IMG/VR virus record: IMGVR_UViG_2816332268_000002
Location: 1-64,000 of that record
Reading direction: 5' to 3' (one strand)
Length of the DNA stretch: 64,000 nt
Source of the DNA: a virus
Lineage: Duplodnaviria > Caudoviricetes
In this document: positions 5,747 to 60,238 of the stretch, piece by piece
How positions within the stretch are numbered: the first letter of the stretch is position 1
Layout: the number at the start of each line of letters is the position of its first letter
Program-made: the position numbers and the translations under genes
Notes under the pieces: generated by a model
Seen by the model: only the letters and a program-made list of their open reading frames with translations
What the model was told of the DNA's origin: nothing
Database searches by the model: none

Positions 5747-5764
5747 TACATCAGCGATGACTTA
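5747..5764. promoter_or_regulatory. Phage operator palindrome
   Basis: TACATCA-GCGA-TGACTTA upstream of the operon starting at 5822. Confidence 0.65.
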
Positions 5765-5821
5765 TTGACGCCGCGTGCGCGTTACGACAATTCATTCATC
5801 GCAACACAACACCAAATCGAA

Positions 5822-6472
5822 ATGACCACGACCGATTACACGGGCCATGCCCAGGCTATTGCCGAAGCACTCGGTGGGATCGCGACGCTCCAGAACCCAG
5901 AGTATGCGAACAACCACTTTTACATCGCCATGCCGGAGCGTGATACCGACGCCCAGATTCTGCTTCGCTTTTCGCCGTATCGTGCAAAGAACCGGCTTGT
6001 CGTAACTCCGTCGTTCAATCTGCTTGGCGAAAGCCGTCGCGGCAGCACTGCCGGCGTCAACAACCTTCGACCGGTTCAGTTCGAGCAGATCGGCTACGTG
6101 TCCGAAATTACGCTCGCAATCACCAAGACGCCGGCGCAGCTGGCGGCCGATATCGAGCGCCGCCTGCTGCCCGGATATCTGAAGGCGCTCGGGCTCGTTC
6201 GTGTCGAACTGAAGAGCGAGGCCGACGAAGAGGCTCAGCGCGACGCCGCGATGCAAAAGTTTGCGGGCATCGTCGGTGAGTGCTGGACGCCCGACAGTCG
6301 CGATAACAGGCGACTCCATGTGCATCGCACGAACACGCCGGCCGGCTACTCCGCGACCCTCGAGCTCCATACGAGTCAAGAGTGCAGCCTCGAGATTCGC
6401 TGGGTCAGCGCTGAACTCGCCGAAAAGATCCTCACGATGCTCGCGGAGCATGGCGAGGCAGAACGAGCATGA
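5822..6472 (+). CDS. Hypothetical phage protein, first gene of small-ORF early operon
   Basis: ATG after operator; stop overlaps next start (ATGA). Confidence 0.7.
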   Translation: MTTTDYTGHAQAIAEALGGIATLQNPEYANNHFYIAMPERDTDAQILLRFSPYRAKNRLVVTPSFNLLGESRRGSTAGVNNLRPVQFEQIGYVSEITLAITKTPAQLAADIERRLLPGYLKALGLVRVELKSEADEEAQRDAAMQKFAGIVGECWTPDSRDNRRLHVHRTNTPAGYSATLELHTSQECSLEIRWVSAELAEKILTMLAEHGEAERA

Positions 6473-6750
6473 GCGAGTTGACCAAAGAAGCGCTTGAGCG
6501 CCAACAAGAGATTCTCGCGGACATCGCATTCGAGGCAGGCAATCGCTGGGCTCGGGCCGATTCGAGAGCGTGCGGAAAGGTGATCGACGCATTGAACGGA
6601 TCGCGCGGCCTGATGGACGAGTTCATCGATTGGGCGAACGAATTCGACCTGTTGTGGGAGGCGGGCGAACTGGATCAGGAGGACTATATCGGCGAGCTTT
6701 GCCGGTTCGCCGACCGCAAACTGACCGAACTGTTCCGGGACTACGCATGA
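6469..6750 (+). CDS. Small acidic hypothetical protein
   Basis: ATGA coupling at both ends. Confidence 0.7.
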   Translation: MSELTKEALERQQEILADIAFEAGNRWARADSRACGKVIDALNGSRGLMDEFIDWANEFDLLWEAGELDQEDYIGELCRFADRKLTELFRDYA

Positions 6751-6986
6751 AGAAGCTCAATGAACCGATGCGGATCGTAGCGAGCAACGCCTGGGGCAGA
6801 GACACGGCCGCGCTTCATCAAGAGTTCGAGGTGGAGGTGTGCGACATCGGCATTCTGCTGCCGCACTACCTCGGACACAACCATCGCGGCTATGTGTTCG
6901 GGCTCGCGGACGTCGGCCGCGTGATCGTGAACATGACCGACGGCACTGGCTGGTCCTGCTGGGCGTTCAAGCCAGGTGCCGCATGA
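6747..6986 (+). CDS. Hypothetical protein
   Basis: MKKLNEP start; ATGA coupling. Confidence 0.65.
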   Translation: MKKLNEPMRIVASNAWGRDTAALHQEFEVEVCDIGILLPHYLGHNHRGYVFGLADVGRVIVNMTDGTGWSCWAFKPGAA

Positions 6987-7228
6987 GCGGTTCACTCCGT
7001 ATGAGCCAGCGCCCACTCGCGGCAGCGGGCTTCAAGAGCTATCGCTGCAAGGGCAGATTCGGCTGGATCATGATCGGCGCCAGCAACGTCGACGATGCCA
7101 TGCGAGAAGCGCGCCGCAGCTGCCCGGAGGCGAAGGTCATCGACCTCGAGGAGTGGAACGGAGAGCGCTACGTGCCCGTTTCGTTCGCAGACGTCCTGAA
7201 GAGCGCCATCGTGCGGTCGGGACAATAG
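6983..7228 (+). CDS. Hypothetical protein
   Basis: ATGA coupling; SYRCKGRFGWIMIGA. Confidence 0.65.
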   Translation: MSGSLRMSQRPLAAAGFKSYRCKGRFGWIMIGASNVDDAMREARRSCPEAKVIDLEEWNGERYVPVSFADVLKSAIVRSGQ

Positions 7229-7258
7229 ACATATCGAAACACAACGCGGGATATACCG

Positions 7259-7669
7259 ATGAAAGCAGCAGTCACTAAGATCCGCCTGCGCCGCGCTGAA
7301 GGAGGCGCGTCCTACCGCTGGGTCGAAGTCGGCTCGTGGGCTGACGCTAATTCACAACTGTGGACGTGGTCGAACACGGCGCCCAAAGGTGGCGCCTGCG
7401 ACAAGTGCGACTTCGAAGTGGAATGGGAGCACGGCGGGCAGTATCACGGCCGCTACGATCTGAAGCATTGGAACGACGAGAGTCCGGACCTGGCCGCACA
7501 CGTTTGCAGCAACGCCTACTTCTATACGGCGCGCCGTCAACCTTCGCACATGACGAACGCCGGCTATGCCGCTTTCCTTGCAGGCCACCAGTCCATTTGC
7601 GAGGACTACGAGCGCCTGCTGCAATGGTGCGACCTCGGCGTAGATGCGCACCCGGCGAAACTGTTCTGA
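7259..7669 (+). CDS. LPD25-like (polyvalent-protein-associated) domain protein
   Basis: GGACDKCDFEVEWEHGGQYHGRYDL resembles the recalled LPD25 YxKTDF..W.DG..Y.GR.DL pattern. Confidence 0.5.
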   Translation: MKAAVTKIRLRRAEGGASYRWVEVGSWADANSQLWTWSNTAPKGGACDKCDFEVEWEHGGQYHGRYDLKHWNDESPDLAAHVCSNAYFYTARRQPSHMTNAGYAAFLAGHQSICEDYERLLQWCDLGVDAHPAKLF

Positions 7670-7681
7670 GAGGGAGGCACA

Positions 7682-8008
7682 ATGTTCTGGATCATTACGA
7701 ACGATCATTTCGGAGACGGTCAGGTGGGCACTGGTAGATACACGACCATGGACTCGATCGTTGCCATCCGCGACACGAAGCTTCGACAGGAAGCGACGGA
7801 TCACTTTGTCGCCGAGCACCCCGAATTCAACGACGAGTTTCGACTGCTCGACGACGACCGCAATGTTTACTACACCGGCCGCTGTGTCGCGCTTGCTGAC
7901 GCCGATCAAGACGCGGCATTTGAGCCGCTCGATTGGGCAATGCCGCATGCGGGCTGCACGATCATGCAATACCGCAAGGTCTGGGCGATCGTATGGGAGG
8001 ATCTGTAA
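7682..8008 (+). CDS. Hypothetical protein
   Basis: GGAGG RBS; FRLLDDD..VYYTGR...FEPLDWAMP.AGCT. Confidence 0.7.
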   Translation: MFWIITNDHFGDGQVGTGRYTTMDSIVAIRDTKLRQEATDHFVAEHPEFNDEFRLLDDDRNVYYTGRCVALADADQDAAFEPLDWAMPHAGCTIMQYRKVWAIVWEDL

Positions 8009-8367
8009 TGCGAGTCCTCAACGCGCTGCGCGATTACCTCGCGCACTCCAAAAGCATCGCGATTCTGGAAGACGCCCAGCCTGTTGCTGACGAACTGAAG
8101 GCTGCCTATCTTGAGCTGCAGTTCGCGGACGAGAAGCTGCTCCATGCCGCGCGCAGGGCATACACCGATGACACCGACGACATCGAAATCAACGATGGCG
8201 CGGTCGTAGCACCGGCACCCGATGGCAAATGGATTCAGGCATGGGTCTGGATGCCGAACGATGATGACGCGTGCCGGGAGTGCGGCGAGGACAGCACGGG
8301 CGGAGAGGGTTACGACGGCCTCTGCGGAAACTGCGCGGATCGTGCGTTCGGCGAGAGCGAGGGCTGA
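8008..8367 (+). CDS. Hypothetical protein with C-terminal CxxC...CxxC zinc ribbon
   Basis: TAATG coupling; GGAGG RBS. Confidence 0.65.
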   Translation: MRVLNALRDYLAHSKSIAILEDAQPVADELKAAYLELQFADEKLLHAARRAYTDDTDDIEINDGAVVAPAPDGKWIQAWVWMPNDDDACRECGEDSTGGEGYDGLCGNCADRAFGESEG

Positions 8368-8368
8368 C

Positions 8369-8590
8369 ATGGCGTGTCTCACCAATTATGCGATCCAGTG
8401 TCGCGATGTCAGCAGCGGCGAGACGGGCGACTTCCTGTTCGACACCGTCCACTGGCAGCACACGGGCGAATTCAAGGCGATCTCTCCGGTGTTTAAGGGG
8501 CTTGCCGAGCTGTTCGAATGGGACGACGAGAACGGCCGGCGCCGAGGGCCGTGCTACCTCGAGCGGATCAAGGAGGGCGTATGCGACTGA
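8369..8590 (+). CDS. Hypothetical protein
   Basis: GAGG RBS; continues the operon. Confidence 0.55.
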   Translation: MACLTNYAIQCRDVSSGETGDFLFDTVHWQHTGEFKAISPVFKGLAELFEWDDENGRRRGPCYLERIKEGVCD

Positions 8591-8793
8591 GTCACTTTCC
8601 CTCGGCGCAGCCCGTTCCATTCACGATTTCGCTGACGGGCACCACTGTTGACGACTTCGGCGACGAAGTTTGGCTGCTCGGTAGCGCGCAGTGGCGTGCG
8701 GCATCCGACTATGTGGACGAGAACTTCTTCGATCGCTCGGTCGGATTCGGCGACAACGCCTATCCCGTCATGAAAGGAATCAAATGCACCTGA
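8581..8793 (+). CDS. Hypothetical protein
   Basis: AGGAGG RBS. Confidence 0.55.
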   Translation: MRLSHFPSAQPVPFTISLTGTTVDDFGDEVWLLGSAQWRAASDYVDENFFDRSVGFGDNAYPVMKGIKCT

Positions 8794-9146
8794 CCAAACG
8801 TGAGCGCCAGCTGCTCCAACATCGTATGACGGCGACGCAGCGCGTGTCGCTCGCGCACCGTTACCGTCGGTCCCCACGCAACCCGGCAGACGACGTAGAT
8901 CAGCGCGGCAAGGGGGTGTTCAAGGGCAAGTGCAATCGAACCGCATGCAACGCGCGCGGGGAAGGCATTGTCTGGTGGAACAGGTCGACGCGTGCCTACT
9001 ACTGCGAATGCTGCAAGCGCGCCATCGACGCATGGGTCGACAAGGAATATGGCCCGTGCTTCGAGAAGCATCCGCACGTCGCTGACGGAGTTCCGCGACC
9101 CTCCGGCGAAGTTATGTGCCTTCAGTCGATTGGAAGGTCAATCTGA
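8784..9146 (+). CDS. Cys-rich hypothetical protein
   Basis: AAGGA RBS; KG...G.CNRTAC...YYC..C. Confidence 0.6.
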   Translation: MHLTKRERQLLQHRMTATQRVSLAHRYRRSPRNPADDVDQRGKGVFKGKCNRTACNARGEGIVWWNRSTRAYYCECCKRAIDAWVDKEYGPCFEKHPHVADGVPRPSGEVMCLQSIGRSI

Positions 9147-10456
9147 AGCAGGTAGATCTTGAAGGCTTCTTCGATCGTTTTGGCTCGAACATCAGAGCCG
9201 ACAAAGCTAAAGTCAAATGCCCAGCCATCTTCTTTATTCCCGGAAAGTTTTGTGCCTAACTTTAGCGAATGCATGAGGTCAAGGGTGTTGAAGTAGTCGC
9301 TAGCGCGTCTGACAAGGTCATTACTATTCTGGGCAAATCTGGTCTGGTTGAGCCACTCCTGTGCCTCTTTGAATGCCGTGTGGCTATTTGCAAGCATGCC
9401 GGCAAAGAGATCTGGGCGCTTCAGTTTTAGGGTAATGAAGTAGGCAAGAAGACCTTCAGCCTCCCGATATCGAGCGTAGGAGAATAGCGCACACCCGCGC
9501 TCGATATCTCGCATTGTCAGTCCCGCGGCCGCCTGCCACAGTGTGAACGCCTGAGCGAATCTCGAGGCAACCGAGTCACGGCCATCGAAGCCCAAACGAT
9601 CCAAAACAGAGGGAATGTAGTAGCGGGTGCTTACACTTGGCAATGTGAAGAAAAAATGGACAAACTTGGAAAGATACGCTGCGCCGTCGGTAGTCGGTCC
9701 ATAGACTCCCGCGATTGCTCGATTCAACTGCTCGCGGTGGATCAGCAACACAAAGATGACGTTTGGCGTCTCGAAGAAGTGCTTGATCCGTTCGATGAGG
9801 CGGACGGCGAAGTCGGGGCGGCACCGATCGAGCTCGTCGACGAATACGATCACGGGCTTCGACTCCTTGGTTGCCATGTCCGAGAGCGCTTTCCGGAATC
9901 CCTTCAACGATTCCTGTTCCTTCTTGTGATTCTCTAGTTTGCGCTCTACCCACCGTTTGACGAATTCCTCAGATTTCTCTTCAGCCTTCTTCACCGCCGC
10001 TTCGTATTCGTCGGCGAGATCGACCTCCCCAAGTGCCCACTTGGACAGCGCACTTGTTGCCACCTTGGCGGCCACTGGCAAACACGCGCTGGCGACCTCG
10101 GCGGCTTTCTTCAGCAAAGCTTTCTTGGAGTCACCATCGAGCAGCGCAGTAAGCTCGGCTGCTATAGGGAGAAAGGGATCCTCCGTGTAGTCCTGCTCGA
10201 AGGCATTAATGAACGCAACTTTGTGTCCACTGGCGCGCAGACTCTTGCCCCAATTCATTCCGAACCAGGTCTTGCCGCCGCCCCATTGAGAGTCGACTGC
10301 AACAACCGCGCCGTTACGAAGCCTTGGTAGTAGCCGCTCGATCTTATCTGCCAATTCGTTACGTCGAAGGAGATCGCCGTCGAAAGCGGACACGTCATCC
10401 GCGAACGATTGCGGAGGCAGCGTGAGAGGTGGAAGAGAAGAACTTGTGTTGGTCAT
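9122..10456 (-). CDS. KAP-family P-loop NTPase
   Basis: DLLRRNELA, WGGGKT Walker A, VFVDELDRCRP Walker B, ERIKHFF, YLSKFV. Confidence 0.9.
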   Translation of the reverse strand: MTNTSSSLPPLTLPPQSFADDVSAFDGDLLRRNELADKIERLLPRLRNGAVVAVDSQWGGGKTWFGMNWGKSLRASGHKVAFINAFEQDYTEDPFLPIAAELTALLDGDSKKALLKKAAEVASACLPVAAKVATSALSKWALGEVDLADEYEAAVKKAEEKSEEFVKRWVERKLENHKKEQESLKGFRKALSDMATKESKPVIVFVDELDRCRPDFAVRLIERIKHFFETPNVIFVLLIHREQLNRAIAGVYGPTTDGAAYLSKFVHFFFTLPSVSTRYYIPSVLDRLGFDGRDSVASRFAQAFTLWQAAAGLTMRDIERGCALFSYARYREAEGLLAYFITLKLKRPDLFAGMLANSHTAFKEAQEWLNQTRFAQNSNDLVRRASDYFNTLDLMHSLKLGTKLSGNKEDGWAFDFSFVGSDVRAKTIEEAFKIYLLQIDLPID

Positions 10457-10594
10457 ATGATCCCCGGTCGGCGGCGCGTAGCGGTCTTGGTCTAGGCGTT
10501 TGTATTGCGTAATTCTAGCGAGTTGTATCGCATTTCCGACGTGAAAAGCGTAGCTCAATTTCACACTCGGAGCAGCCGCCTAGCAGTGTCGATG

Positions 10595-10607
10595 CAAGCC
10601 ATTGATT
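10595..10607 (-). promoter_or_regulatory. IHF consensus site
   Basis: Reverse complement AATCAATGGCTTG matches WATCAANNNNTTR. Confidence 0.45.
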
Positions 10608-10965
10608 TGTAATGGAAACGAGCTGTTCTCAAGGGCGCCTCATTTCAGGGAGACTTCGGCAAGACTTCATGGCGTCAGAGAATCGATTCAGCCAGCTCGG
10701 CAGCCCGTCCGAGACAGCAGGGCAGACCGAGACATCACTCAGCGCACAGCAACCGAATGCCGAGCGATCTGACGAACCAGCACCAAGAAGTCCAACCGCC
10801 CGAAACGGTAGAGAGAAAGGGATGAACGATCATTTGGCTCGAGCGACGTGGAGGGCGCGGAAGAGAACAACACCGGTATGGGGAGAGCACACGTCACCTG
10901 CACGTCATCGACACATTCCCGTATGCACATCCATCCTCACATACACGCGCAGTATTGGTAACGTG

Positions 10966-11981: not shown

Positions 11982-11984
11982 CAG

Positions 11985-12985: not shown

Positions 12986-13003
12986 TAAATTTCTTGTGAC
13001 TTA
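12986..13003. promoter_or_regulatory. Phage operator palindrome (degenerate)
   Basis: TAAATTT-CTTG-TGACTTA in an AT-rich promoter. Confidence 0.55.
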
Positions 13004-14476: not shown

Positions 14477-14494
14477 TAAGTCCTTAGTGACTTA
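14477..14494. promoter_or_regulatory. Phage operator palindrome
   Basis: TAAGTCC-TTAG-TGACTTA. Confidence 0.8.
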
Positions 14495-14584: not shown

Positions 14585-15253
14585 ATGAACGCACAAGAAA
14601 ATGTCTTCACCCTCGAAAACGTCATGACCGCAATCAACCGCGCTAACGATCGTTGGTCCAAGAAAGAAGGGCGCGCGGGCGAGTGCGAAGACCTGAAAAC
14701 CGCGCGTAAGTATTGGGATGACAAGCTTTGCGTTTTCGCTGCGGGCATGCTCAAGCGCGCAAAGATCTCCGATATCGAATTCCTGTCGACCATCGCCGAC
14801 AATATGGGCGTGAAAGCGGTAAAGCGCGTTTCCGAGTTTCTCGCGTGCTTGCATGCGAAAGACTACACCATGCTTGATGGTGTTACCGCGCTGTCGCTCC
14901 TGAGCGCGATTCATGCGGGCGCGGTTTCCCGTAGCGCACTGGTCTATGCGACGACGGGCAAGGGTGACGATTCGACGTCTGACGTGGTGCGCGACGTGTC
15001 GCTGGTCAATAAGCTTCGTCGCGTCATTGGTGGGGTGGGCGTCACGACGGAGGGCACGCAGAATTCCCGCTCGTTTGGTTCGAACGGGTTCTGCAAGTAT
15101 CTGGGCATGGGCAAGATGGTTCGCGTAAAGGGCAAAGAAGCAACCTTGGAAGTGAACGAAAAATCCCCGTTCATCGCTGCAATCGCAAAGATGGTTGAGA
15201 CTGCAAGCGACGACACCCTTTCGCTCGTTAAAGGTGCAAAAAAGGATAAGTAA
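14585..15253 (+). CDS. Isolated early phage protein, probable paralog of 4436-5515
   Basis: TAGGT RBS; lower-GC codons; flanked by two operators and a hairpin. Confidence 0.8.
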   Translation: MNAQENVFTLENVMTAINRANDRWSKKEGRAGECEDLKTARKYWDDKLCVFAAGMLKRAKISDIEFLSTIADNMGVKAVKRVSEFLACLHAKDYTMLDGVTALSLLSAIHAGAVSRSALVYATTGKGDDSTSDVVRDVSLVNKLRRVIGGVGVTTEGTQNSRSFGSNGFCKYLGMGKMVRVKGKEATLEVNEKSPFIAAIAKMVETASDDTLSLVKGAKKDK

Positions 15254-15288
15254 ATTATGATTTAGTGGGCGCGGCATGCGCCCACTAA
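15247..15288. promoter_or_regulatory. Operator (15247-15264) overlapping hairpin (15262-15288)
   Basis: TAAGTAA-ATTA-TGATTTA, then TTAGTGGGCGC-ggcat-GCGCCCACTAA. Confidence 0.65.
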
Positions 15289-19863: not shown

Positions 19864-19881
19864 ATAGTAAGCAGTGATTTA
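19864..19881. promoter_or_regulatory. Operator in divergent promoter (helicase / ParB operon)
   Basis: ATAGTAA-GCAG-TGATTTA; minus-strand TATACT overlaps. Confidence 0.65.
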
Positions 19882-21877: not shown

Positions 21878-21895
21878 TAAATCACCAGTGATTTA
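21878..21895. promoter_or_regulatory. Phage operator palindrome
   Basis: Perfect TAAATCA-CCAG-TGATTTA occupying the space before the ATG at 21897. Confidence 0.8.
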
Positions 21896-22942: not shown

Positions 22943-23922
22943 GCACGCCGGCCACCGCATTGAACCTTGCCGGGCCGATCACGGCGTCCGACGACCGGGA
23001 TAGCCCGATCCTGGCGTGGCGCGATCCGGCGGCTGGCACGCGGCCGCTGTCGCTCGTCAAGCACATGTATGTGGAGCGGGGCACGCTGGAAGACTGGCAA
23101 CTGCTCCACGAGCTCCACTACAAGGCATCGAACAACGGCATCGGCCCGCGCTACATGCGCCTGGTCGTCGACGACGGCGTCGCGCCGGCCCAGACGATCG
23201 GCGTGATGGTGTTCACGGTGCCCAAGCCGCTCGACTCGGGTCGAAATCAGGTGTTCCCGCATCTGCGTCCGAACCAGAACGGCCGCGACACGAAGCTGAT
23301 GAACGTGCAGCGCATGGCATGGATCAACAAGAACCTGATCCTGTCATCGCGCACGGTGCTGGACACGATGTATCGCGGCGGCGGCATCGCCTACCGTTTC
23401 AAGAACCTGGCATACCGCCTGATGGGCTTTCGCTACGTCGAATCGCGCAGCTCCATGAGCCGATACAACCCGTTCTCGGCGAAGGCCGGCATGCGGTTCG
23501 TGAAGCCGAAGTCGGCACCGGCGTTCGAGCCGGGCCTCGCTTTCTTCGCGCGGCACTTCAAGAGCCCTGCCTACGATTACGTCGCGATCAAGGCAGAGAT
23601 CGAGGGCATGCCCGACTACCTGCGCGAGCACACGCTGAAGGAGCTCCGCTCCTTCTACTACCGCAACAGCTCGATGGAGAAGTCGGGCGACAACCGGCTG
23701 AATGGCACTTCACGCGTCGAGCAGATGGAGCTCGGCTACCTCCTGAAGCAGACGCAGCAGCTCGTGTTCGGCGCGACGGTGTATGCCGCGTGGGTGAACC
23801 CTGATTGGGACGCGGCAACCGGCGCCATGCGCGCGCTGCCGGCACGCCTGCCGCTGTCCGCGTTCGACATGCAGGGCGTGGGCGAGCCACTGCGGCTCGA
23901 TCTGCTGGAGGCCGCGGCGTGA
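22939..23922 (+). CDS. GNAT-fold (Mom-like) acyltransferase
   Basis: LHELHY; SRTVLDTMYRGGGIA acyl-CoA motif A; MSRYNPF..KAGM. Confidence 0.7.
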   Translation: MSTPATALNLAGPITASDDRDSPILAWRDPAAGTRPLSLVKHMYVERGTLEDWQLLHELHYKASNNGIGPRYMRLVVDDGVAPAQTIGVMVFTVPKPLDSGRNQVFPHLRPNQNGRDTKLMNVQRMAWINKNLILSSRTVLDTMYRGGGIAYRFKNLAYRLMGFRYVESRSSMSRYNPFSAKAGMRFVKPKSAPAFEPGLAFFARHFKSPAYDYVAIKAEIEGMPDYLREHTLKELRSFYYRNSSMEKSGDNRLNGTSRVEQMELGYLLKQTQQLVFGATVYAAWVNPDWDAATGAMRALPARLPLSAFDMQGVGEPLRLDLLEAAA

Positions 23923-24338: not shown

Positions 24339-24434
24339 GGCACGCTATCTTACTGAATGCTTTCGAATGGAGGCTCCGGCGCCGGAGTCTCCAGCGAACC
24401 AACCAAAGAACCGAGGAATTATTACGAAATGCTT

Positions 24435-24618
24435 TACTTGTCACTTTTCAGGCATTCCCGTTCCGCGGGCCTCGGGGAGACAAAATATCGTTTGTATTCA
24501 GAAAGTTACTGATTACTTGTCACTTTTTTGGTATTTCCGTGGCTTGCTGTAAGAAAAGTAATGTCCTCTCCCGTGGCCTTTCACATTTCTTTCAACTTGT
24601 CACTTTTTGGGTGTTCCC
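24435..24618 (+). repeat. Three ~25-bp direct repeats at 79-80 bp period
   Basis: ACTTGTCACTTTT at 24436, 24515 and 24595, each continuing ..GG..TT.CC; AT-rich block follows. Confidence 0.85.
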
Positions 24619-24763
24619 TATATATAAGAACCCTTTTTAAAACCTTTACTGTATTTACATTGATTGACTGAAAGGTTTTAGAAAGGTGTTCCGGCGGGCA
24701 TGACGGGAGGGTGAGAACGATGTGCGGGACGGGGACGGCGCGGCCGAATTGCGTCGTAAAAAA

Positions 24764-24781
24764 TAAGTCGGCAGTGATTTA
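24764..24781. promoter_or_regulatory. Operator at terminase promoter
   Basis: TAAGTCG-GCAG-TGATTTA overlapping TTTACA (-35); TATGCT 18 bp later. Confidence 0.75.
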
Positions 24782-26812: not shown

Positions 26813-26830
26813 TAAGTCAGTAGTGATTTA
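26813..26830. promoter_or_regulatory. Operator upstream of portal
   Basis: TAAGTCA-GTAG-TGATTTA within TTGACT-17-TTTAAT. Confidence 0.8.
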
Positions 26831-29445: not shown

Positions 29446-29463
29446 TAAGTCACCGATGATTTA
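29446..29463. promoter_or_regulatory. Operator upstream of major capsid gene
   Basis: TAAGTCA-CCGA-TGATTTA overlapping TATCAT -10. Confidence 0.8.
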
Positions 29464-29489
29464 TCATCGTTCTTTTCGAAAGGAAAACT

Positions 29490-30401: not shown

Positions 30402-30419
30402 TAAGTCACTAATGATTTA
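30402..30419. promoter_or_regulatory. Operator after MCP, followed by terminator-like hairpin (~30434-30464)
   Basis: TAAGTCA-CTAA-TGATTTA. Confidence 0.8.
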
Positions 30420-33715: not shown

Positions 33716-33733
33716 TAAATAAGCGATGACTTA
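33716..33733. promoter_or_regulatory. Operator upstream of major tail gene
   Basis: TAAATAA-GCGA-TGACTTA overlapping TATCAT. Confidence 0.75.
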
Positions 33734-33763
33734 TCATCGCATCCTTTGCAAAGGAGTTTTTGA

Positions 33764-34626: not shown

Positions 34627-34644
34627 TAAGTCATTAACGACTTA
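34627..34644. promoter_or_regulatory. Operator upstream of tail chaperone
   Basis: TAAGTCA-TTAA-CGACTTA. Confidence 0.75.
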
Positions 34645-34690
34645 ATGAGCCGGCGCAAGCCGGCTCACCCACATGAAAAAGCGAAAGAGC

Positions 34691-40825: not shown

Positions 40826-40843
40826 TAAGTCACTTATGACTTA
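40826..40843. promoter_or_regulatory. Operator overlapping NlpC start codon
   Basis: TAAGTCA-CTTA-TGACTTA. Confidence 0.8.
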
Positions 40844-47823: not shown

Positions 47824-47841
47824 TAAGTCAGCAATGACTTA
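47824..47841. promoter_or_regulatory. Operator in spacer of TTGTAG-17-TATACT promoter
   Basis: TAAGTCA-GCAA-TGACTTA, perfect arms. Confidence 0.85.
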
Positions 47842-53112: not shown

Positions 53113-53130
53113 TAAGTCACTAATGACTAT
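53113..53130. promoter_or_regulatory. Operator upstream of lysis cassette
   Basis: TAAGTCA-CTAA-TGACTAT. Confidence 0.8.
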
Positions 53131-53569: not shown

Positions 53570-53581
53570 GGGGGCCGCGCC

Positions 53582-54124
53582 ATGAACATGACTTATTCCA
53601 AGACCGGACTGCAACTGACGGAGCACTTCGAGGGCTGCGTGCTTTACGCCTACCCGGATCCGAAGTCTCCGCTGGGGGTAGAGCTCCAACGCCGCGGGCT
53701 CTGGAAGAAAACGCTCGCCGGTGCGCCGATCGCTGCCGACCTACTCAACAAGTTGAGCGCGCGGCCGTGGACGATCGGCTACGGCCATACCGGGCCGGAA
53801 GTGCGTTACGGGCTGGTATGGACGCAAGCGCAAGCGGAGGCGGCACTGATGAAGGATGTGCAGGCTGCGGTCGACGCAGTCAACCGTCTCGTGAAGGTGC
53901 CGCTGAGCCAATGCCAGTTCGATGCGCTCGTCGATTTTGTCTTCAACCTCGGCGAAACGCGATTTGCGGGCTCCACCATGCTGCGTCTGCTGAACGCCGG
54001 TCTGTATGAGGCCGCCGCCAACGAATTCCAAAGGTGGGATATGGCAGGCGGCGTTCACGTTGCGGGCCTGCTGCGGCGCCGGCAAGCCGAAGCGCGGGAA
54101 TTCCGCTGCGAGGAGCCGGCATGA
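53582..54124 (+). CDS. Endolysin, GH24 lysozyme
   Basis: FEG...AYPD...WTIGYGHT...QFDALV.FVFNLG...GLLRRRQAE. Confidence 0.95.
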   Translation: MNMTYSKTGLQLTEHFEGCVLYAYPDPKSPLGVELQRRGLWKKTLAGAPIAADLLNKLSARPWTIGYGHTGPEVRYGLVWTQAQAEAALMKDVQAAVDAVNRLVKVPLSQCQFDALVDFVFNLGETRFAGSTMLRLLNAGLYEAAANEFQRWDMAGGVHVAGLLRRRQAEAREFRCEEPA

Positions 54125-55815: not shown

Positions 55816-55817
55816 AG

Positions 55818-55841
55818 TAAGTAAGCAATGACTATAATTAA
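55818..55841. promoter_or_regulatory. Operator overlapping TATAAT
   Basis: AGTAAGTAAGCAATGACTATAATT is identical to the copy at 58766. Confidence 0.8.
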
Positions 55842-55880
55842 GTCATCGCTAATTTTTCATCAACTCACTGGAGTTCCAGC

Positions 55881-56264
55881 ATGACCCCCGAGCAAGCTCG
55901 CCAAGAACAGATCAACGCCGGCCGCCGAATGATTACGCTCGAGCATCGCACGCTCGAAAGCCGCACGGGCAGTGTCGCTCGTCCGCAGTATGGGGAACAG
56001 CGCCCGCGTGCCACCGCACGCCCGCCGAAGGGTCACGATGCCATCCTCAAGGCGATGCAGGAAGAACGTCAGCTCGCCACGATCATCACTACGGGTGACG
56101 TCACGTTCGAAGGGCTGGTGACCGGCCGCGACAAATATACGATCACGCTGCTGACCAAGCATCCGAAGGACTCGACGCGTCTGATTCGTCGCGTGTTCTA
56201 CAAGCATGCGATCGAACAGTTCTTCGGCGTGCCCCAGGACAGCGATACGTCGGCGGTGCAGTGA
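55881..56264 (+). CDS. hfq: Hfq-like Sm-fold RNA chaperone
   Basis: HDAILKAMQEERQLATI...FEGLVTGRDKYTITL...VFYKHAI aligns by eye to Hfq Sm1/Sm2 (YKHAI). Confidence 0.8.
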   Translation: MTPEQARQEQINAGRRMITLEHRTLESRTGSVARPQYGEQRPRATARPPKGHDAILKAMQEERQLATIITTGDVTFEGLVTGRDKYTITLLTKHPKDSTRLIRRVFYKHAIEQFFGVPQDSDTSAVQ

Positions 56265-57661
56265 TGAGCGTGGTGGCATTGTCAGCAGTGCCGTCGACGA
56301 CGCCGGCCGCAGAAGCGGCCGAGCCGCCGATGAGCAAGTTCCAGTTCGACGGTGACTTTCAGTCGCGTATTGCGGCCCTTACCCTGCGTGACACGTCCTT
56401 CAACCAGATGGTCGATGGGCTGGTCGAGCCGGGGCATTTCGAGTCTGAGATCGAGTCCTATCTTGTCAGCGTCGCGCTGCGCTACTGGAGCAAGTATCGC
56501 AAGGCACCGGCAAACATCGGCATCTACGCAATGCTATTGCGGGAAGACCTGGACGCCAAAGTGCTACCGAAAGCGCTCGGCGTTGCGGCGATCGCTCACC
56601 TGAAGAATCTGTTCGAGACGGACATTTCCGACCGCGACTTCGTGGTCGATCAGGTTGCGACGTTCGCTCGGCATCAGGCCATGCAGGCTGCGATGTTCAA
56701 GGCGATCCCGAAGCTCGACCGCAACGATTTCGACGGCATTTCGAAGCTCATGCAGACGGCGCTGAACGTCGGCGCGAACGCAGAGGGGGACACCTACGAT
56801 TTTGCGGCGTCGATTGACAACCGCACCGGCATCCGTCTGGAGCGCGCGTCGGGCAAGCTGCCGCCGCAAGGCATCACGACCGGCTACCGGGTGATCGACG
56901 ATCTGCTCTATCACCGCGGCTGGGGCCGCAAAGAGCTGTCGGTGCTACTGGGCGCTGCGAAGGCGGGCAAGACGACCGCGCTGATCGACTTCGGCATCGG
57001 TGCTTGGGCCGCCGGCCACAACGTCTACTACGCGTCGTGTGAAGTCTCGCGGGAGGTGATCTCCGACCGGATGGACGCCAACATCGCCGAGCAGGCAATG
57101 ATGGAGCTCGGGGCGCACACGCACGAAGTCCGCGACAAGGTTCGCCTGTTCGCAGACCGCGCGCGGCGCGCCGACGGCACGAACGCGAAGTTCATGATCG
57201 ACGAGTTCCCGACCGGCTCGCTGAAGGTGTCGGAGCTTCGTCGGCGTCTCGAGCGGTTCAAGCAGCAGGGCATCGTTTTCGATCTGGTCATCGTCGACTA
57301 CGCCGACATCATGTCGCCGGAGCGAGTCACGGACTCCGCGATCGAGAATTCCAAGTCGGTCTACGTTGACCTGCGCGGGTTGGCGATTCGAGAAGGGCTC
57401 GCAGTGCTGACCGCAACGCAGTCGAACCGGATCGGCGCGAACGCGAACGTCATCAAGGCCGAGCACGTCGCTGAAGACTTCAACAAGGTCCGTATCGCAG
57501 ACATCATCATTTCGATCAACCGCACCGAAGAAGAGCGCGCAGCGGGCCGGGCTCGGCTGTATTTCGCAGCGTCGCGAAACCAAGGCGGGGAATTCACGAT
57601 TGAGATCGAGCAGGCGATGGACCGGATGAAGTTCATTACCAAGGTGCTCGGCTTCGCATAA
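56261..57661 (+). CDS. dnaB: Replicative DnaB-like helicase
   Basis: GITTGY, GAAKAGKT, IVDYAD, TATQSNR. Confidence 0.92.
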   Translation: MMSVVALSAVPSTTPAAEAAEPPMSKFQFDGDFQSRIAALTLRDTSFNQMVDGLVEPGHFESEIESYLVSVALRYWSKYRKAPANIGIYAMLLREDLDAKVLPKALGVAAIAHLKNLFETDISDRDFVVDQVATFARHQAMQAAMFKAIPKLDRNDFDGISKLMQTALNVGANAEGDTYDFAASIDNRTGIRLERASGKLPPQGITTGYRVIDDLLYHRGWGRKELSVLLGAAKAGKTTALIDFGIGAWAAGHNVYYASCEVSREVISDRMDANIAEQAMMELGAHTHEVRDKVRLFADRARRADGTNAKFMIDEFPTGSLKVSELRRRLERFKQQGIVFDLVIVDYADIMSPERVTDSAIENSKSVYVDLRGLAIREGLAVLTATQSNRIGANANVIKAEHVAEDFNKVRIADIIISINRTEEERAAGRARLYFAASRNQGGEFTIEIEQAMDRMKFITKVLGFA

Positions 57662-57670
57662 GGAGCAACA

Positions 57671-58774
57671 ATGGCGACTGACGATCTGTCAGAGCTGCTG
57701 GATACCATCGATATGCCCTCGTGGATGGATCGCGAGGGCATTTCTTATCGGCTCACGCACGGCCGATCGGGCCAGCAAATCAACGTGCGGGAATGCCCGA
57801 CGTGCGGCAACTCCGACTGGAAGGTCTACGTCAACGCCGACACCGGCGTCGGCAACTGCTTCGCCGGCTCGCACCCGGTCGAAGAGCGGATCTTCACCAA
57901 ATACCGGTTCATTCGCGACCATCTGGGTCGGCCGCACGGTTCGAAAGTCATCGAGCACATCAGGGCATACGCGCGCGAACAGGGCTGGCGGCCGGCGCGA
58001 CGTCAATCCGTCGAGGTCGAGAAGCATGTCGGCTGGGAGCTGCCGCAGCACATCGACCTACCTCATGAGGGGCGCAACCTCGCCTATCTCGAGAACCGCG
58101 GCATCACTGCGGACCTGTCTGCGTATTTTCACCTCGCCTACTGCCCGCGCGGTGCGCACTTCCGGTATCCGGCCGAGCGTGGTTGGGCCTACCAGGACTA
58201 CAGCGCACGCGTGCTGATCCCGGTGTTCGACATGGATGGGAAGCTCGCGACATTTCAGGGGCGCGACGTGACCGGCCATGCCGAGAAGAAGTATCTCTTC
58301 CCGCCGGGCATCGATGGATCGGGCGTGCATCTGTTCAACGGGCTCAACGTCCACGACACGAAGCGCATAGCGGTAGGTGAGGGCGCGTTCGACGTAGCGG
58401 CGATCAAGATCGCGCTCGACGCGGATCCGCAACTGCGCGACGTGGTTCCGGTGGGCACGTTCGGCAAGCACCTGTCGTCGGGCAGCGATAACAGTCAGCT
58501 CGCGAAGTTCATGTTGCTCAGGGAGCGCGGCGTCGAGGAGGTGACCTTCATGTGGGATGGGGAAGTTCAGGCGACCGACGACGCGGTCGAGGCCGGATTG
58601 ATGCTGCGCCAGCACGGGTTTCGCGTGCGTATCGCAATGCTTCCGCCCGAGAAAGATCCGAACGAGGTGCCTGCCGAGGTGGTGCGGCGCGCGTTCTATG
58701 GGGCGACGCTGCTGAACGGGGTGTCAGCGATGCAGCTCCGAATGAGTCGTCGTATTATGAATTCAAGTAAGTAA
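57671..58774 (+). CDS. DNA primase (Zn finger plus TOPRIM)
   Basis: ECPTCG..C, FQGRD, KKY, GEGAFD, MWDGE, KDPNE. Confidence 0.9.
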   Translation: MATDDLSELLDTIDMPSWMDREGISYRLTHGRSGQQINVRECPTCGNSDWKVYVNADTGVGNCFAGSHPVEERIFTKYRFIRDHLGRPHGSKVIEHIRAYAREQGWRPARRQSVEVEKHVGWELPQHIDLPHEGRNLAYLENRGITADLSAYFHLAYCPRGAHFRYPAERGWAYQDYSARVLIPVFDMDGKLATFQGRDVTGHAEKKYLFPPGIDGSGVHLFNGLNVHDTKRIAVGEGAFDVAAIKIALDADPQLRDVVPVGTFGKHLSSGSDNSQLAKFMLLRERGVEEVTFMWDGEVQATDDAVEAGLMLRQHGFRVRIAMLPPEKDPNEVPAEVVRRAFYGATLLNGVSAMQLRMSRRIMNSSK

Positions 58775-58785
58775 GCAATGACTAT
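58768..58785. promoter_or_regulatory. Operator overlapping TATAAT
   Basis: TAAGTAA-GCAA-TGACTAT. Confidence 0.8.
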
Positions 58786-58815
58786 AATTCAGGTATCAGC
58801 AATTTCGGAGGTGTC

Positions 58816-59283
58816 ATGAAGCTACGGCGCAGCTTTTCCCAGCACGAGCTCGGCACGAAGGCATATCAGGTCATCGAGGTGGAGATCGATGACAAGTTCG
58901 CCGTCGTCAATCAATACGGCAAATTCAATCCTGGCGACTCGATAGAGGGGTGGAGCGCGAAGGTAGATCTGAGTGGGCCGTATTCGTGGACTAAGTCGCG
59001 CGATCTGCAGGACAAGAAGATCAACGAGAAGCGGCGGCGCGGCTACAAGGAGTGGGATGCGTCCGAATTGTCGTTTGGTTCGGAGCGCGAGCTGATGGAC
59101 GCGTTGAAGCGCCTCATCGGGCCATTCAAGGCCGAAGCAGTCCGGCAGCTTCTCGTCGGCGGGGCTTCCCGCGCGGTTTCCGATGACTCGCCAGTGGGCG
59201 CTCCCGAAAATGACACCAAGGGCAGCAAGAAAGTGCCCGCACCGCGAACCGAAGAATCGACGCCCGAATGGGCCACTTGGTAG
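58816..59283 (+). CDS. WGR-like domain protein
   Basis: TKAYQV...VNQYGK...KKINEKRRRGY; GGAGG RBS. Confidence 0.55.
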   Translation: MKLRRSFSQHELGTKAYQVIEVEIDDKFAVVNQYGKFNPGDSIEGWSAKVDLSGPYSWTKSRDLQDKKINEKRRRGYKEWDASELSFGSERELMDALKRLIGPFKAEAVRQLLVGGASRAVSDDSPVGAPENDTKGSKKVPAPRTEESTPEWATW

Positions 59284-59292
59284 GAGAAGGTA

Positions 59293-59946
59293 ATGACCGA
59301 ACAAGCAACGGCGCCCGCAGTCATGCCGCCGGCCACCTCTGCTGACGGCAAGCGCAATGCGTTCTACACGGACTGTCTGAGCCTGAAGGTGAAGAAGCCG
59401 TATGCGGCGTGTCAGCACATCGCGGATCACGCGAATGACGCGTCGATTCAGGCGATCTACGGCGACTGCCTGACCGAGATTCGCCAGTGCCGCTGCACTG
59501 CGCTCGACATGCGTCAGAAGGAGCAGCTGGAGGGGCGCGCGATCTACTTCATTGAGCGAGTGAAGGGCGAAGCGATCGTCGCGCATCAGCAGCAGGCATG
59601 GGTGTCGCCGCTGTCGACAAAGCGCTCCCGCACGCAGCGAAGCGCTGTGCCGGCGCCCGTATCGAAGCCCGCTGACATCCTGACTCAGCCGGCGATCGGC
59701 ATCGACATTCATGCGGCCGTGCTCAACCGGATGGTGGCGCAACGCTCGCAGCCGATTGCCGAAGCAGTAAACGCAACTAACGGTCAGATTGCGCCGACCC
59801 ATACACCCGCCGCTATCGCGGCGGCCGAAACCCCTGCCGCCACGAACGGGGCGCTTCCCAAGCTCGTTATCCGAGCAGGCGAGTCGCCGTTCGAGGCGAT
59901 CCAGCGCATGAAGCGCGAGCGTCAAAACCAACAGGCCCACGCATGA
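59293..59946 (+). CDS. Cys-containing hypothetical protein
   Basis: AGGAG RBS; YAAC...C...C.C.AL.MR. Confidence 0.7.
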   Translation: MTEQATAPAVMPPATSADGKRNAFYTDCLSLKVKKPYAACQHIADHANDASIQAIYGDCLTEIRQCRCTALDMRQKEQLEGRAIYFIERVKGEAIVAHQQQAWVSPLSTKRSRTQRSAVPAPVSKPADILTQPAIGIDIHAAVLNRMVAQRSQPIAEAVNATNGQIAPTHTPAAIAAAETPAATNGALPKLVIRAGESPFEAIQRMKRERQNQQAHA

Positions 59947-60223
59947 GCGACCCATCTACAAGCCGATCGAGCAGGTTGCGATCGGCCAGCAATTCATCGA
60001 CCTCGATACGCGCGCTCGCATGCTGCGCATCGGCAACATCATGTCGGGCCACCGGCCGTCGCTCGCTGAAGAATTCCAGCGTCAGGAGCTGCACAGCGTC
60101 GCGCTCGAGCCCGGAAAGCTGCTGGATGGCCGGCCGTTCCCGGCCGGCCAGGTCTTCACGATGCGTCGCAACGAGGCGGTGGAGGTCATCAACATCGAAC
60201 CCGAACATCACACAAAAGGATAA
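59943..60223 (+). pseudogene. Small ORF with apparent 1-nt deletion (or sequencing error) in C-run at ~59951
   Basis: Adding one C gives MSDPIYKPIEQVAIGQQF... in frame with the 60020-60223 ORF. Confidence 0.55.
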
Positions 60224-60238
60224 GTCACGAATGACTCA
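60221..60238. promoter_or_regulatory. Operator overlapping ligase start
   Basis: TAAGTCA-CGAA-TGACTCA. Confidence 0.7.

What the first reader, a model, noticed from the sequence alone, without database searches (positions are those of the whole stretch)
5747..60238. Genome-wide 18-bp palindromic operator (TAARTCA-N4-TGAYTTA) at about 18 operon heads
Seen: near-perfect copies at 14477, 21878, 24764, 26813, 29446, 30402, 34627, 40826, 47824, 53113 and 60221, and degenerate copies at 5747, 12986, 15247, 19864, 33716, 55818 and 58768 (the last two share an identical 24-mer). Nearly all sit in short intergenic gaps or on start codons. The right arm repeatedly overlaps a -10-like hexamer (TATAAT, TATACT, TATCAT), and at 47824 the box fills the spacer of TTGTAG-17-TATACT. 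Sites precede early, replication, packaging, capsid, tail and lysis genes alike. Known: phage P1 silences its plasmid prophage through many dispersed C1 operators, but those are asymmetric. Inference: one dimeric master regulator controls essentially every transcript, an apparently undescribed regulon. Candidate binders are the XRE HTH (63639-), the wHTH (23919) or the 4436/14585 pair.
Basis: partly seen in the sequence, partly recalled or inferred. Interest (0 to 1): 0.8.

Follow-up and report, generated by a model that had tools for sequence, protein, structure and literature searches.

The report
Dispersed repressor operators of a temperate phage
An 18-base palindrome sits on about 30 promoters of this 104-kb temperate phage and is most likely where the phage's own small XRE-type repressor binds to keep the virus silent; relatives from E. 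coli, Klebsiella, Acinetobacter, Cupriavidus and Rhizobium share the circuit, and I found no paper describing it.

Summary
The window is the first 64 kb of a 104,464-bp phage record. TAARTMA-N4-TKAYTTA occurs 30 times (up to 2 mismatches), against 0.13 expected. Of these, 28 lie in the 10% of DNA that is non-coding (P = 3e-26).

The sites are best read as operators of the XRE helix-turn-helix protein at 63639-64133 (minus strand).
- Variants of the palindrome are multi-copy in all eight relatives checked that carry a homologue of this protein.
- Four relatives without the homologue (nickie, ANB28, BUCTxx99, JGB6) have none.
- Sites lie before the same orthologous genes across genomes that are only about 35-60% identical in protein.
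- Half-site variants are not compensated, which argues against a hairpin.
- Each site overlaps or abuts a -10-like hexamer, in two different registers.
- The regulator's own divergent promoter region has a TATAAT-N1-operator on each strand.
- The E. coli homologue (CYRAN_45) is expressed in lysogens.

This is a new member of a known kind: a prophage repressor with dispersed operators, as in P1 C1, L5 stoperators and phiC31 CIRs. Nothing has been tested at the bench. This scan has noted the same palindrome family before in SSU5-like phage-plasmids of other genomes.

The parts
5747..5764 (.). Degenerate operator copy (1 mismatch), upstream of the ORF at 5822
   Evidence: TACAAT lies 8 nt upstream.
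12986..13003 (.). Degenerate copy (2 mismatches; left arm poor)
14477..14494 (.). Operator copy (1 mismatch), 90 nt upstream of the ORF at 14585
15247..15264 (.). Operator copy (TAAGTAA left arm), overlapping the stop of the ORF 14585-15253
19864..19881 (.). Operator in the divergent gap between the SF2 helicase (minus strand) and the ParB-like gene (plus strand). A site at this junction is found in all 6 genomes compared.
21878..21895 (.). Exact copy between the second ParB-like gene and the ABC-type ATPase gene
24764..24781 (.). Operator with TACAAT at position 17, upstream of the terS-like gene (24883)
26813..26830 (.). Exact copy before the portal gene, lying inside TTGACT-17-TTTAAT. The orthologous position is occupied in 5 of 6 genomes.
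29446..29463 (.). Exact copy before the major head gene. TATCAT starts at position 17. The orthologous position is occupied in 5 of 6 genomes.
30402..30419 (.). Exact copy directly after the stop of the major head gene. The Cupriavidus relative has a site at the same place, built on its own consensus (TCAGTCA).
33716..33733 (.). Operator before the Ig-domain tail gene. TATCAT starts at position 17.
34627..34644 (.). Operator before the ORF at 34673
40826..40843 (.). Exact copy before the minor tail gene. TATATT starts at position 17.
47824..47841 (.). Exact copy filling the spacer of TTGTAG-17-TATACT, before the tail fibre gene
53113..53130 (.). Operator before the lysis cassette (endolysin at 53582)
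55818..55835 (.). First of a tandem pair of operators. Its right arm overlaps a perfect TATAAT. It lies before the Hfq-like and DnaB genes.
55839..55856 (.). Second operator of the pair, starting directly after the TATAAT (class-1 arrangement)
58768..58785 (.). Operator sharing a 24-mer with 55818. TATAAT starts at position 16.
60221..60238 (.). Operator before the ATP-dependent DNA ligase gene
63639..64000 (-). C-terminal 119 codons of the candidate repressor. The gene runs to 64133, beyond the window, and encodes 164 aa (P0001). The N-terminal XRE-type HTH is encoded just past the window edge. Two degenerate operators, each 1 nt after a TATAAT, lie at 64188 and 64328 in its divergent promoter region.

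Best explanation
The 18-bp palindromes are operators for a dimer of the phage's own XRE/Cro-C1-type helix-turn-helix protein (63639-64133, minus strand, 164 aa).

Each half-site (TAAGTCA or TAAGTAA) would be read by one HTH, with half-site centres 11 bp apart. Every operator overlaps or abuts the -10 hexamer or start site of a promoter. Bound repressor would therefore keep RNA polymerase off about 25-30 promoters for packaging, head, tail, lysis, replication, recombination and nucleotide-metabolism operons while the phage is dormant.

Two weaker operators sit 1 nt after perfect TATAAT boxes, one on each strand of the repressor's own divergent promoter region. These would give autoregulation and control of the neighbouring small-ORF/CobT/CobS/DnaE operon.

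Shown by computation:
- the sites, their enrichment and their placement;
- co-occurrence with the regulator across related genomes;
- conserved position before orthologous genes;
- absence of compensatory changes between the arms;
- an HTH fold for the protein.

Inferred: binding itself, repression rather than activation, and the dimeric state.

Unknown: how the phage is induced. The protein has no peptidase domain.
For: 1. Enrichment and placement. There are 30 sites against 0.13 expected, and 28 of 30 are intergenic (P = 3e-26).

2. Co-occurrence with the regulator.
- A tblastn of all 138 called proteins against G001 and B1VFA (motif-rich) and nickie (motif-free) left the XRE protein as the only DNA-binding protein present in the first two and absent from nickie.
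- A profile of 80 homologues finds exactly one copy in each of G001, Cyrano, the Acinetobacter plasmid, the Cupriavidus plasmid and B1VFA. It finds none in nickie, ANB28, JGB6, BUCTxx99 or SSU5.
- tblastn also finds the homologue in RHEph10 and Klebsiella pJN2-26.
- Motif counts: G001 29 (up to 1 mismatch), B1VFA 42 (up to 2 mismatches), Acinetobacter 26, Cupriavidus 23 and RHEph10 7 (core pattern). Cyrano and pJN2-26 have 8 and 7 copies of their own variant. Nickie, ANB28, JGB6 and BUCTxx99 have 0.

3. Conserved position. Sites lie upstream of the orthologues of the helicase/ParB junction, CobS and the regulator itself in 6 of 6 genomes. They lie upstream of portal, major head, tail and SSB in 5 of 6. 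Median protein identity to the nearest relative is only about 44%. Each genome uses its own consensus at the shared positions.

4. Half-sites vary independently.
- At positions 6/13, G000 has 12 C-G, 4 A-G, 1 C-T and 0 A-T.
- G001 has 26 C-G, 10 unpaired and 0 compensated.
- In Acinetobacter the counts at positions 2/17 match independence.

5. Geometry. The -10-like hexamer starts at position 16 or 17 at 11 sites, or ends just before or at position 1 at another 8. B1VFA shows the same two arrangements. This variable register over the core promoter fits occlusion rather than activation.

6. Motif-free nickie keeps gcTcTATAAT-type promoters at orthologous places without the palindrome. The palindrome therefore looks like an add-on module.

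7. The protein.
- AlphaFold gives pLDDT 90.9 and an all-helical model.
- The N-terminal domain superposes on P22 c2 (rmsd 1.5 A over 63 residues) and 434 Cro (2.0 A over 64).
- The recognition-helix stretch NPNMITMLKQG is conserved.
- The order regulator, small ORF, CobT is conserved.

8. The E. coli homologue CYRAN_45 is annotated 'putative repressor' and is transcribed 10-fold above prophage background in lysogens. Cyrano is induced by ciprofloxacin (PMC9928086).
Against: - No binding, footprint, start-site or expression data exist for this phage.
- Pfam HTH_3 scores below its curated cut-off (20 against 23 bits).
- Most palindrome-linked promoters have no recognisable -35. A strict sigma-70 scan finds no enrichment. 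So something else may be needed to fire them, and a positive role is not excluded.
- SSU5 keeps 8 palindromes of the enterobacterial type but has no detectable regulator. Co-occurrence is therefore not perfect, although loss of the repressor with the operators retained is what a virulent derivative would show.
- Many homologues of the regulator at 40-50% identity, in other prophages of 80 bacterial species, have no such palindrome within 10 kb. Family membership alone does not predict the site.
- The genomes compared are few and related, so the 2x2 association counts only about 3-4 independent events.
- Small, fast-evolving proteins could share the same presence/absence pattern and escape tblastn.
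Confidence: 0.65

Rival explanations
1. The palindrome binds a regulator that turns the promoters on. Either the XRE protein itself or another phage protein acts as an activator or sigma adaptor for promoters that lack a -35, so the box is a lytic-regulon promoter module rather than a silencing site.
For: Most sites lack a -35 hexamer, and the strict sigma-70 scan shows no enrichment. The box sits where a -35/spacer element would. XRE-family proteins can activate: lambda CI at PRM and C proteins of restriction-modification systems are examples from general knowledge. C.AhdI and C.Esp1396I are among the fold matches.
Against: The box occupies two different registers relative to the -10: overlapping it from upstream, or starting 0-2 nt downstream of it. 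Activators usually need fixed geometry. Motif-free relatives run the same genes from similar -10 elements without the box. The homologue is expressed in the lysogenic state.
Confidence: 0.13
2. The operators are real but are bound by a different phage or host protein. The association with the XRE gene is a by-product of both being traits of the temperate lineages.
For: The association rests on about 13 genomes and few independent events. SSU5 has sites but no regulator. The small ORF next to the regulator is syntenic in all relatives but too divergent to score.
Against: No other DNA-binding candidate has the right presence/absence pattern. The ParB-like proteins and the wHTH are present in motif-free nickie. 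The sigma-70_r2 protein is present in motif-free ANB28 and BUCTxx99, and was not detected in motif-rich G001, Cyrano or the Cupriavidus plasmid. Operators flank the XRE gene itself in all six genomes, which is the hallmark of autoregulation.
Confidence: 0.1
3. The box is simply the core promoter recognised by the phage-encoded sigma factor (68190-68846) or a modified host polymerase, with no separate regulator.
For: The phage encodes a Sigma70_r2 protein. The flanks are asymmetric: A-rich upstream and TAnnnT downstream.
Against: Dyad symmetry with 7-9 bp arms and an 11-bp half-site spacing is not how sigma factors read DNA. Sigma presence does not track the motif. In B1VFA the box is appended to two different promoter types.
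Confidence: 0.06
4. The element works as a hairpin in RNA or single-stranded DNA, for example a 5' stabiliser, a processing site, or an N4-type hairpin promoter. Alternatively it is a nick or recombination site.
For: In class-1 arrangements the palindrome would be at the very 5' end of the transcript. G-T combinations at positions 4/15 would be wobble pairs in + strand RNA.
Against: No compensatory changes are seen at positions 6/13 in G000, G001 and Cupriavidus: each variant there breaks the pair. The central 4 nt are complementary in only about 40% of sites. Where the box lies in the promoter spacer it would not be transcribed from that promoter. No giant virion RNA polymerase was found; the large ORFs annotated are tail genes.
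Confidence: 0.04

Closest known systems
Phage-plasmid P1: C1 repressor and its dispersed operators (general knowledge; Lobocka et al. 2004, cited)
   Same: One prophage repressor acts through more than a dozen operators scattered over a roughly 100-kb genome, at many separate operons rather than at one immunity region.
   Different: P1 operators are asymmetric 17-mers read by a C1 protein that is not an XRE/Cro-C1 HTH. Here the sites are 18-bp palindromes and the candidate binder has the lambda-repressor-like fold. There is no sequence relation.
Stoperators of Cluster A mycobacteriophages (L5 gp71, Bxb1 gp69; PMC6550527 listed; details from general knowledge)
   Same: There are 20-35 repressor sites per genome, nearly all in short intergenic gaps throughout early and late operons.
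   Different: Stoperators are 13-bp asymmetric sites. They work in one orientation, mostly inside transcription units, by blocking elongation. Here the sites are symmetric and sit on the -10/start region of promoters.
Conserved inverted repeats (CIRs) of Streptomyces phage phiC31 and its c repressor (recalled knowledge; lead from earlier finding e1-496926; not checked in a paper here)
   Same: A palindromic operator of about 17 bp is found in many intergenic regions and at the repressor's own gene.
   Different: The host phylum, phage lineage and repressor protein differ. I made no sequence or fold comparison.
Lambda/434/P22 CI-Cro switches
   Same: The DNA-binding fold is the same (P22 c2 rmsd 1.5 A, 434 Cro 2.0 A). 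The operators have dyad symmetry. There is a divergent repressor/early-operon promoter region with operators on both promoters.
   Different: Lambdoid repressors act at two operator clusters and leave late genes to a cascade, whereas here about 30 promoters are targeted directly. No S24 peptidase domain is present, so RecA-driven self-cleavage is unlikely.
KorA/KorB global regulon of IncP plasmid RK2 (general knowledge)
   Same: Palindromic operators are distributed over a whole replicon and repress many operons.
   Different: KorB is a ParB-family protein that acts at a distance. The ParB-like proteins of this phage are also present in motif-free relatives.

Membership tests
XRE / Cro-C1 (lambda-repressor-like) HTH DNA-binding proteins | Match to a curated HTH_3-type profile | tested here: inconclusive
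   Pfam HTH_3 gives E = 7e-4 and 20 bits, below the 23-bit cut-off, over residues 20-65. Close homologues are named 'helix-turn-helix transcriptional regulator' and 'HTH cro/C1-type domain-containing protein' by NCBI and UniRef.
XRE / Cro-C1 (lambda-repressor-like) HTH DNA-binding proteins | Five-helix globular domain that superposes on solved repressors | tested here: met
   The AF2 model has pLDDT 90.9. Foldseek matches: P22 c2 TM(target) 0.83, rmsd 1.5 A over 63 residues; 434 Cro 0.79, 2.0 A; DdrO, C.AhdI, HigA, SinR and the lambda repressor are also listed. E-values are weak (0.002-0.05) because only the N-terminal 65 residues match.
LexA/CI-type self-cleaving repressors | C-terminal S24 peptidase domain with a Ser-Lys dyad | tested here: not met
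   No Peptidase_S24 hit was found. The C-terminal half is all-helical.
Prophage repressor with genome-wide dispersed operators (functional class: P1 C1, L5 gp71, phiC31 c) | More than 10 copies of one site spread over the genome, concentrated in intergenic DNA | tested here: met
   30 sites, 28 of them intergenic, P = 3e-26.
Prophage repressor with genome-wide dispersed operators (functional class: P1 C1, L5 gp71, phiC31 c) | Sites at the repressor's own gene (autoregulation) | tested here: met
   Sites at 64188 and 64328 each lie 1 nt after a TATAAT. A site lies 127-244 bp upstream of the regulator in all six genomes.
Prophage repressor with genome-wide dispersed operators (functional class: P1 C1, L5 gp71, phiC31 c) | The protein binds the sites and silences lytic genes in the lysogen | not testable with these tools
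   Support is indirect only: co-occurrence with the regulator and expression of the E. coli homologue in lysogens (PMC9928086).
P1 C1 / L5 gp71 systems in the strict sense | Asymmetric operator that depends on orientation | tested here: not met
   The sites have dyad symmetry with 7-9 bp arms.
SSU5-related siphophage / phage-plasmid superfamily (the element as a whole) | Shared core genes: DnaE-type polymerase, CobT/CobS-like pair, SbcCD, terminase, portal and major head homologues | tested here: met
   PHROG and tblastn hits. DnaE is 37-45% identical to those of SSU5, Cyrano, RHEph10, B1VFA and nickie.
SSU5-related siphophage / phage-plasmid superfamily (the element as a whole) | Plasmid maintenance genes (ParA partition ATPase, replication initiator) | tested here: inconclusive
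   None was found among the roughly 50 proteins I scanned, and many small ORFs were not scanned. A tyrosine integrase lies at 103190-104353. The exact repressor sequence also occurs on an 890-kb contig, which hints at an integrated form.

The most novel reading that the evidence does not exclude
The palindrome-regulator pair is more than an off-switch. Most boxed promoters lack a -35, and the box occupies the -35/spacer or start-site position. The same XRE protein, or a complex it forms with the syntenic small ORF or the phage sigma factor, might therefore both silence these promoters in lysogeny and license them during lytic growth. That would make one protein and one 18-mer the master address label for transcription of a 100-kb virus, across a superfamily spanning alpha-, beta- and gammaproteobacteria. 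According to earlier notes of this scan, which I did not check, that superfamily includes the Yersinia pestis pMT1 and Salmonella Typhi pHCM2 plasmids.
Probability: 0.1. Interest if true: 0.75.

Novelty: new member of a known kind. Interest (0 to 1): 0.55.

Why it matters
SSU5-related phage-plasmids and their relatives are common in Enterobacteriaceae, Acinetobacter, Burkholderiales and rhizobia. According to the papers read here, they often carry resistance or toxin-antitoxin cargo. The reviews I read list no lysogeny switch for them.

If one small XRE repressor silences 25-40 promoters through a conserved palindrome, several things follow:
- It gives a simple handle for predicting immunity groups, from the half-site variant together with the recognition helix.
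- It helps to tell temperate relatives from virulent ones. The four virulent-looking relatives (nickie, ANB28, BUCTxx99, JGB6) lack both parts, while SSU5 keeps sites without the repressor.
- It maps the transcription units of poorly annotated 100-kb elements.
- It allows controlled induction or curing experiments.

This genome extends the regulon to a 60% GC element whose nearest repressor homologues are in Burkholderia. It also shows that the site positions have been held while the proteins diverged to about 40% identity.

Tried and rejected
- **Literature.** Full-text searches for the half-site letters gave only chance hits. Searches on SSU5, phage-plasmid, repressor, operator, palindromic and inverted repeat found no description of these sites. 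[quoted passage not shown]
- **Canonical sigma-70 promoters.** The strict scan of 40-60 kb found 3 sites against 4.8 expected, none at a box. The call for 20-40 kb failed on a size slip and I did not repeat it.
- **Phage sigma factor as reader.** Rejected because its presence does not track the motif.
- **ParB-like proteins, the wHTH at 23919 and the 4436/14585 pair as binders.** Rejected on their presence/absence pattern across the related genomes. PHROG and Pfam gave no DNA-binding call for the pair.
- **Hairpin model.** Rejected because no compensatory changes are seen.
- **Co-variation of the recognition helix with the half-site variant.** An alignment of 8 regulators shows differences (ITMLKQG against LSLIKSG against LMAMISNG), but there are too few genomes to call a code.
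- **Wide search of bacterial genomes with the regulator profile.** The 80-row alignment was too diverse to seed the scan. A 14-row alignment returned 80 loci, most without the palindrome within 10 kb; a few carry AGTMA-N4-TKACT next to the gene, for example L187, L201 and L216. So the wider XRE family has diversified its sites.
- **tRNAs.** None in the window.

Full report
**What the DNA is.** The window is bases 1-64000 of a single 104,464-bp virus record with 60.6% GC. From about 19.9 to 102 kb almost all genes are on the + strand. They encode:
- two ParB-like proteins, an ABC-type ATPase, a terS-like protein and terL;
- portal, scaffold and major head proteins;
- tail proteins, including a 1468-aa and a 2010-aa protein and a tail fibre;
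- an endolysin;
- an Hfq-like protein and a DnaB helicase, a ligase, and a CobT/CobS-like pair;
- a Sigma70_r2 protein, a DnaE-type polymerase, SSB, an exonuclease and a UvsX-like recombinase;
- SbcCD, RNR and RtcB.

A tyrosine integrase lies at the right end. The first 19 kb holds mixed-strand cargo, including a KAP NTPase.

By DnaE (37-45% identity) the relatives are Rhizobium phages RHEph10 and B1VFA, Pseudomonas phage nickie, Stenotrophomonas phages ANB28 and BUCTxx99, Xanthomonas phage JGB6 and the SSU5-type phage-plasmids of enterobacteria. Among the genomes I fetched, the nearest is a 106-kb Cupriavidus metallidurans plasmid: 56 proteins are shared, with a median identity of 44%. The nearest homologues of the regulator itself are in the Burkholderia cepacia complex (72-77% identity).

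**The observation.**
- In the window there are 6 exact copies and 16 with up to 2 mismatches, against 0.00 and 0.11 expected.
- In the whole record the consensus TAARTMA-N4-TKAYTTA has 30 copies at up to 2 mismatches, against 0.13 in simulations.
- Of these, 28 lie in the 10% of the record that is non-coding (P = 3e-26).
- The sites lie 15-100 nt upstream of + strand genes of every functional class.
- The information profile is symmetric over the two arms but asymmetric outside them: A-rich on the upstream side and TAnnnT on the downstream side.

**Relatives.** A scan of IMG/VR for the exact box found it in several copies on contigs of 103-119 kb.
- One complete 115-kb contig, G001 (44% GC), has 29 copies with up to 1 mismatch. 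Many are the perfect 18-mer TAAGTCACTAGTGACTTA.
- Rhizobium phage B1VFA has 27-30 copies of TAAGTAA-N4-TTACTTA.
- An Acinetobacter baumannii plasmid has 26 core sites (TCAGTCAGTACTGACTGA).
- The Cupriavidus plasmid has 23 and RHEph10 has 7.
- E. coli Cyrano and Klebsiella pJN2-26 carry a TAAGTA-based variant, with 8 and 7 copies of TAAGT-N4-ACTTA.
- Nickie, ANB28, BUCTxx99 and JGB6 have none.

**Who binds.** I compared all 138 called proteins with G001, B1VFA and nickie.
- Apart from an 82-aa ORF just upstream of the 1468-aa tail gene, only the ORF at 63639-64133 (minus strand) is present in both motif-rich genomes and absent from nickie.
- Its N-terminus is cut off by the window edge. The full protein (P0001, 164 aa) has a Cro/C1-type HTH.
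- Its AlphaFold model (pLDDT 90.9) superposes on P22 c2, 434 Cro, DdrO and C proteins. The rest is helical, with no peptidase domain.
- A profile of 80 homologues finds one copy in each of five motif-rich genomes, and none in nickie, ANB28, JGB6, BUCTxx99 or SSU5.
- The gene always lies next to a small ORF and the CobT-like gene.
- The plasmid collection holds a homologue on 1006 records, mostly Klebsiella, Escherichia, Acinetobacter, Enterobacter, Yersinia and Salmonella.
- In E. coli LF82 the homologue CYRAN_45 is listed as the putative master repressor. It is transcribed 10-fold above prophage background in lysogens, and Cyrano is induced by ciprofloxacin (PMC9928086).

The Sigma70_r2 protein does not track the motif. 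It is present in motif-free ANB28 and BUCTxx99, and was not detected in motif-rich G001, Cyrano or the Cupriavidus plasmid. The ParB-like proteins and the wHTH are present in nickie.

**Protein site or hairpin.** Where a genome has both C and A at arm position 6, the partner position 13 does not follow.
- G000 has 4 A-G, 1 C-T and no A-T.
- G001 has 10 unpaired and none compensated.
- Cupriavidus has 9 unpaired and none compensated.
- In Acinetobacter the counts at positions 2/17 fit independence.

The central four bases are complementary in only about 40% of sites. Each half-site therefore behaves as an independent recognition unit, as expected for a dimeric protein and not for a stem.

**Conserved placement.** A site lies upstream of the orthologues of the helicase/ParB junction, CobS and the regulator in 6 of 6 genomes. 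It lies upstream of portal, major head, tail and SSB in 5 of 6. Directly after the major head stop codon, G000 has TAAGTCA..TGATTTA where Cupriavidus has TCAGTCA..TGACTGA. The position is the same, but each genome uses its own consensus.

**Relation to promoters.** Two arrangements recur.
- In the first, the right arm overlaps a -10-like hexamer that starts at position 16 or 17 (TATAAT four times, TATCAT three times, TATACT twice, TATATT, TACAAT). The box then fills the spacer, as in TTGTAG-17-TATACT at 47824 and TTGACT-17-TTTAAT at 26813.
- In the second, a -10 hexamer ends 0-2 nt before the box. Examples are 55839, 64328, 96757 and, on the other strand, 64188.

B1VFA shows both clearly. Its structural genes have TTGCAA-17-TACAAT with the box as spacer. 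Its replication and nucleotide-metabolism genes have CTCC..gcgcTATAA followed at once by the box and a ribosome-binding site. Nickie has similar gcTcTATAAT elements at orthologous places with no box.

A site that always covers the core promoter, but in different registers, is what repressor operators look like. Most boxed promoters lack a good -35, so I cannot say what fires them once the repressor is gone.

**The switch region.** Between the regulator (minus strand) and the 75-aa ORF (plus strand) lie 255 bp. Each strand there carries a perfect TATAAT followed after one base by a degenerate box: AAAGTCA-TCTG-TAACTAA and TAAGTAA-CCGC-TTATCAA. This is the layout of an autoregulated repressor facing an early lytic operon.

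**Limits.**
- Everything here is computational.
- SSU5 keeps its boxes but has no detectable regulator. I read this as loss of the repressor in a lytic isolate, but I did not test that.
- Homologues of the regulator in other prophages of 80 bacterial species mostly lack the box nearby.
- The association rests on few independent lineages.
- The induction route is unknown.

**Comparison with what is known.**
- The logic matches phage-plasmid P1 (C1 with dispersed operators), Cluster A mycobacteriophages (stoperators) and, most closely in form, the conserved inverted repeats of phiC31.
- The binding fold is that of lambdoid CI/Cro.
- It is not a member of the P1 or L5 systems, whose sites are asymmetric and whose proteins are different, nor of the self-cleaving CI/LexA class.
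- I found no paper describing these sites or this regulon.
- Earlier notes of this scan reached the same reading on SSU5-like phage-plasmids from other genomes, and on overlapping windows of this genome.
- I reached my reading before seeing those notes. They are not independent evidence.

Noticed in passing
window 24420-24640: Three direct repeats of about 25 bp (ACTTGTCACTTTT..GG.rTTCC), spaced about 80 bp apart, lie in the 544-bp gap upstream of the terS-like gene. They may be a packaging (pac) site or a terS binding array.
   Followed up: no
window 55881-56264: A phage-encoded Hfq-like protein (Pfam Hfq E = 4.5e-6, 26.6 bits against a cut-off of 27) has a roughly 50-aa N-terminal extension. 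It lies just upstream of the DnaB-like helicase and behind the tandem operator pair.
   Followed up: partly
G000 68190-68846 (L001:4190-4846), beyond the window: A phage sigma-70 family protein (Sigma70_r2, E = 5.9e-6) lies between the CobS-like gene and DnaE. B1VFA has an annotated sigma factor at the same place. Its promoters are unknown; the B1VFA motif CTCC..gcgcTATAA is a candidate.
   Followed up: partly
L134-L140 (Rhizobium phage B1VFA), e.g. 486, 20052, 104746, 114793: About a dozen promoters share CTCC-N14-16-GCGyTATAA directly upstream of the palindrome. This is a second, phage-specific promoter class, distinct from the TTGCAA-17-TACAAT promoters of the structural genes.
   Followed up: partly
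SSU5 (JQ965645.1), whole record: SSU5 has 8 TAAGT-N4-ACTTA boxes, like its temperate relative Cyrano, but no homologue of the XRE regulator by profile search. It may be a repressor-less lytic derivative.
   Followed up: partly
Cyrano (OV696614.1), whole record: A second, unrelated palindrome, AAACAA-N-TTGTTT, occurs 9-12 times in Cyrano. Nothing comparable stands out in G000.
   Followed up: no
window 29455-29470 and 33725-33740: At two sites the right arm is nested in a second palindrome, CGATGAyTTATCATCG, centred on the -10-like hexamer.
   Followed up: no
window 9122-10393 (minus strand) and G000 102285-104353: Cargo and boundary genes without operators: a KAP-family P-loop NTPase, an Mrr-like nuclease domain protein and a tyrosine integrase at the right end of the record.
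   Followed up: partly
G000 94610-95821 (L002:10610-11821): A full-length RtcB RNA ligase (Pfam E = 1.8e-129) is encoded in the late part of the genome.
   Followed up: no
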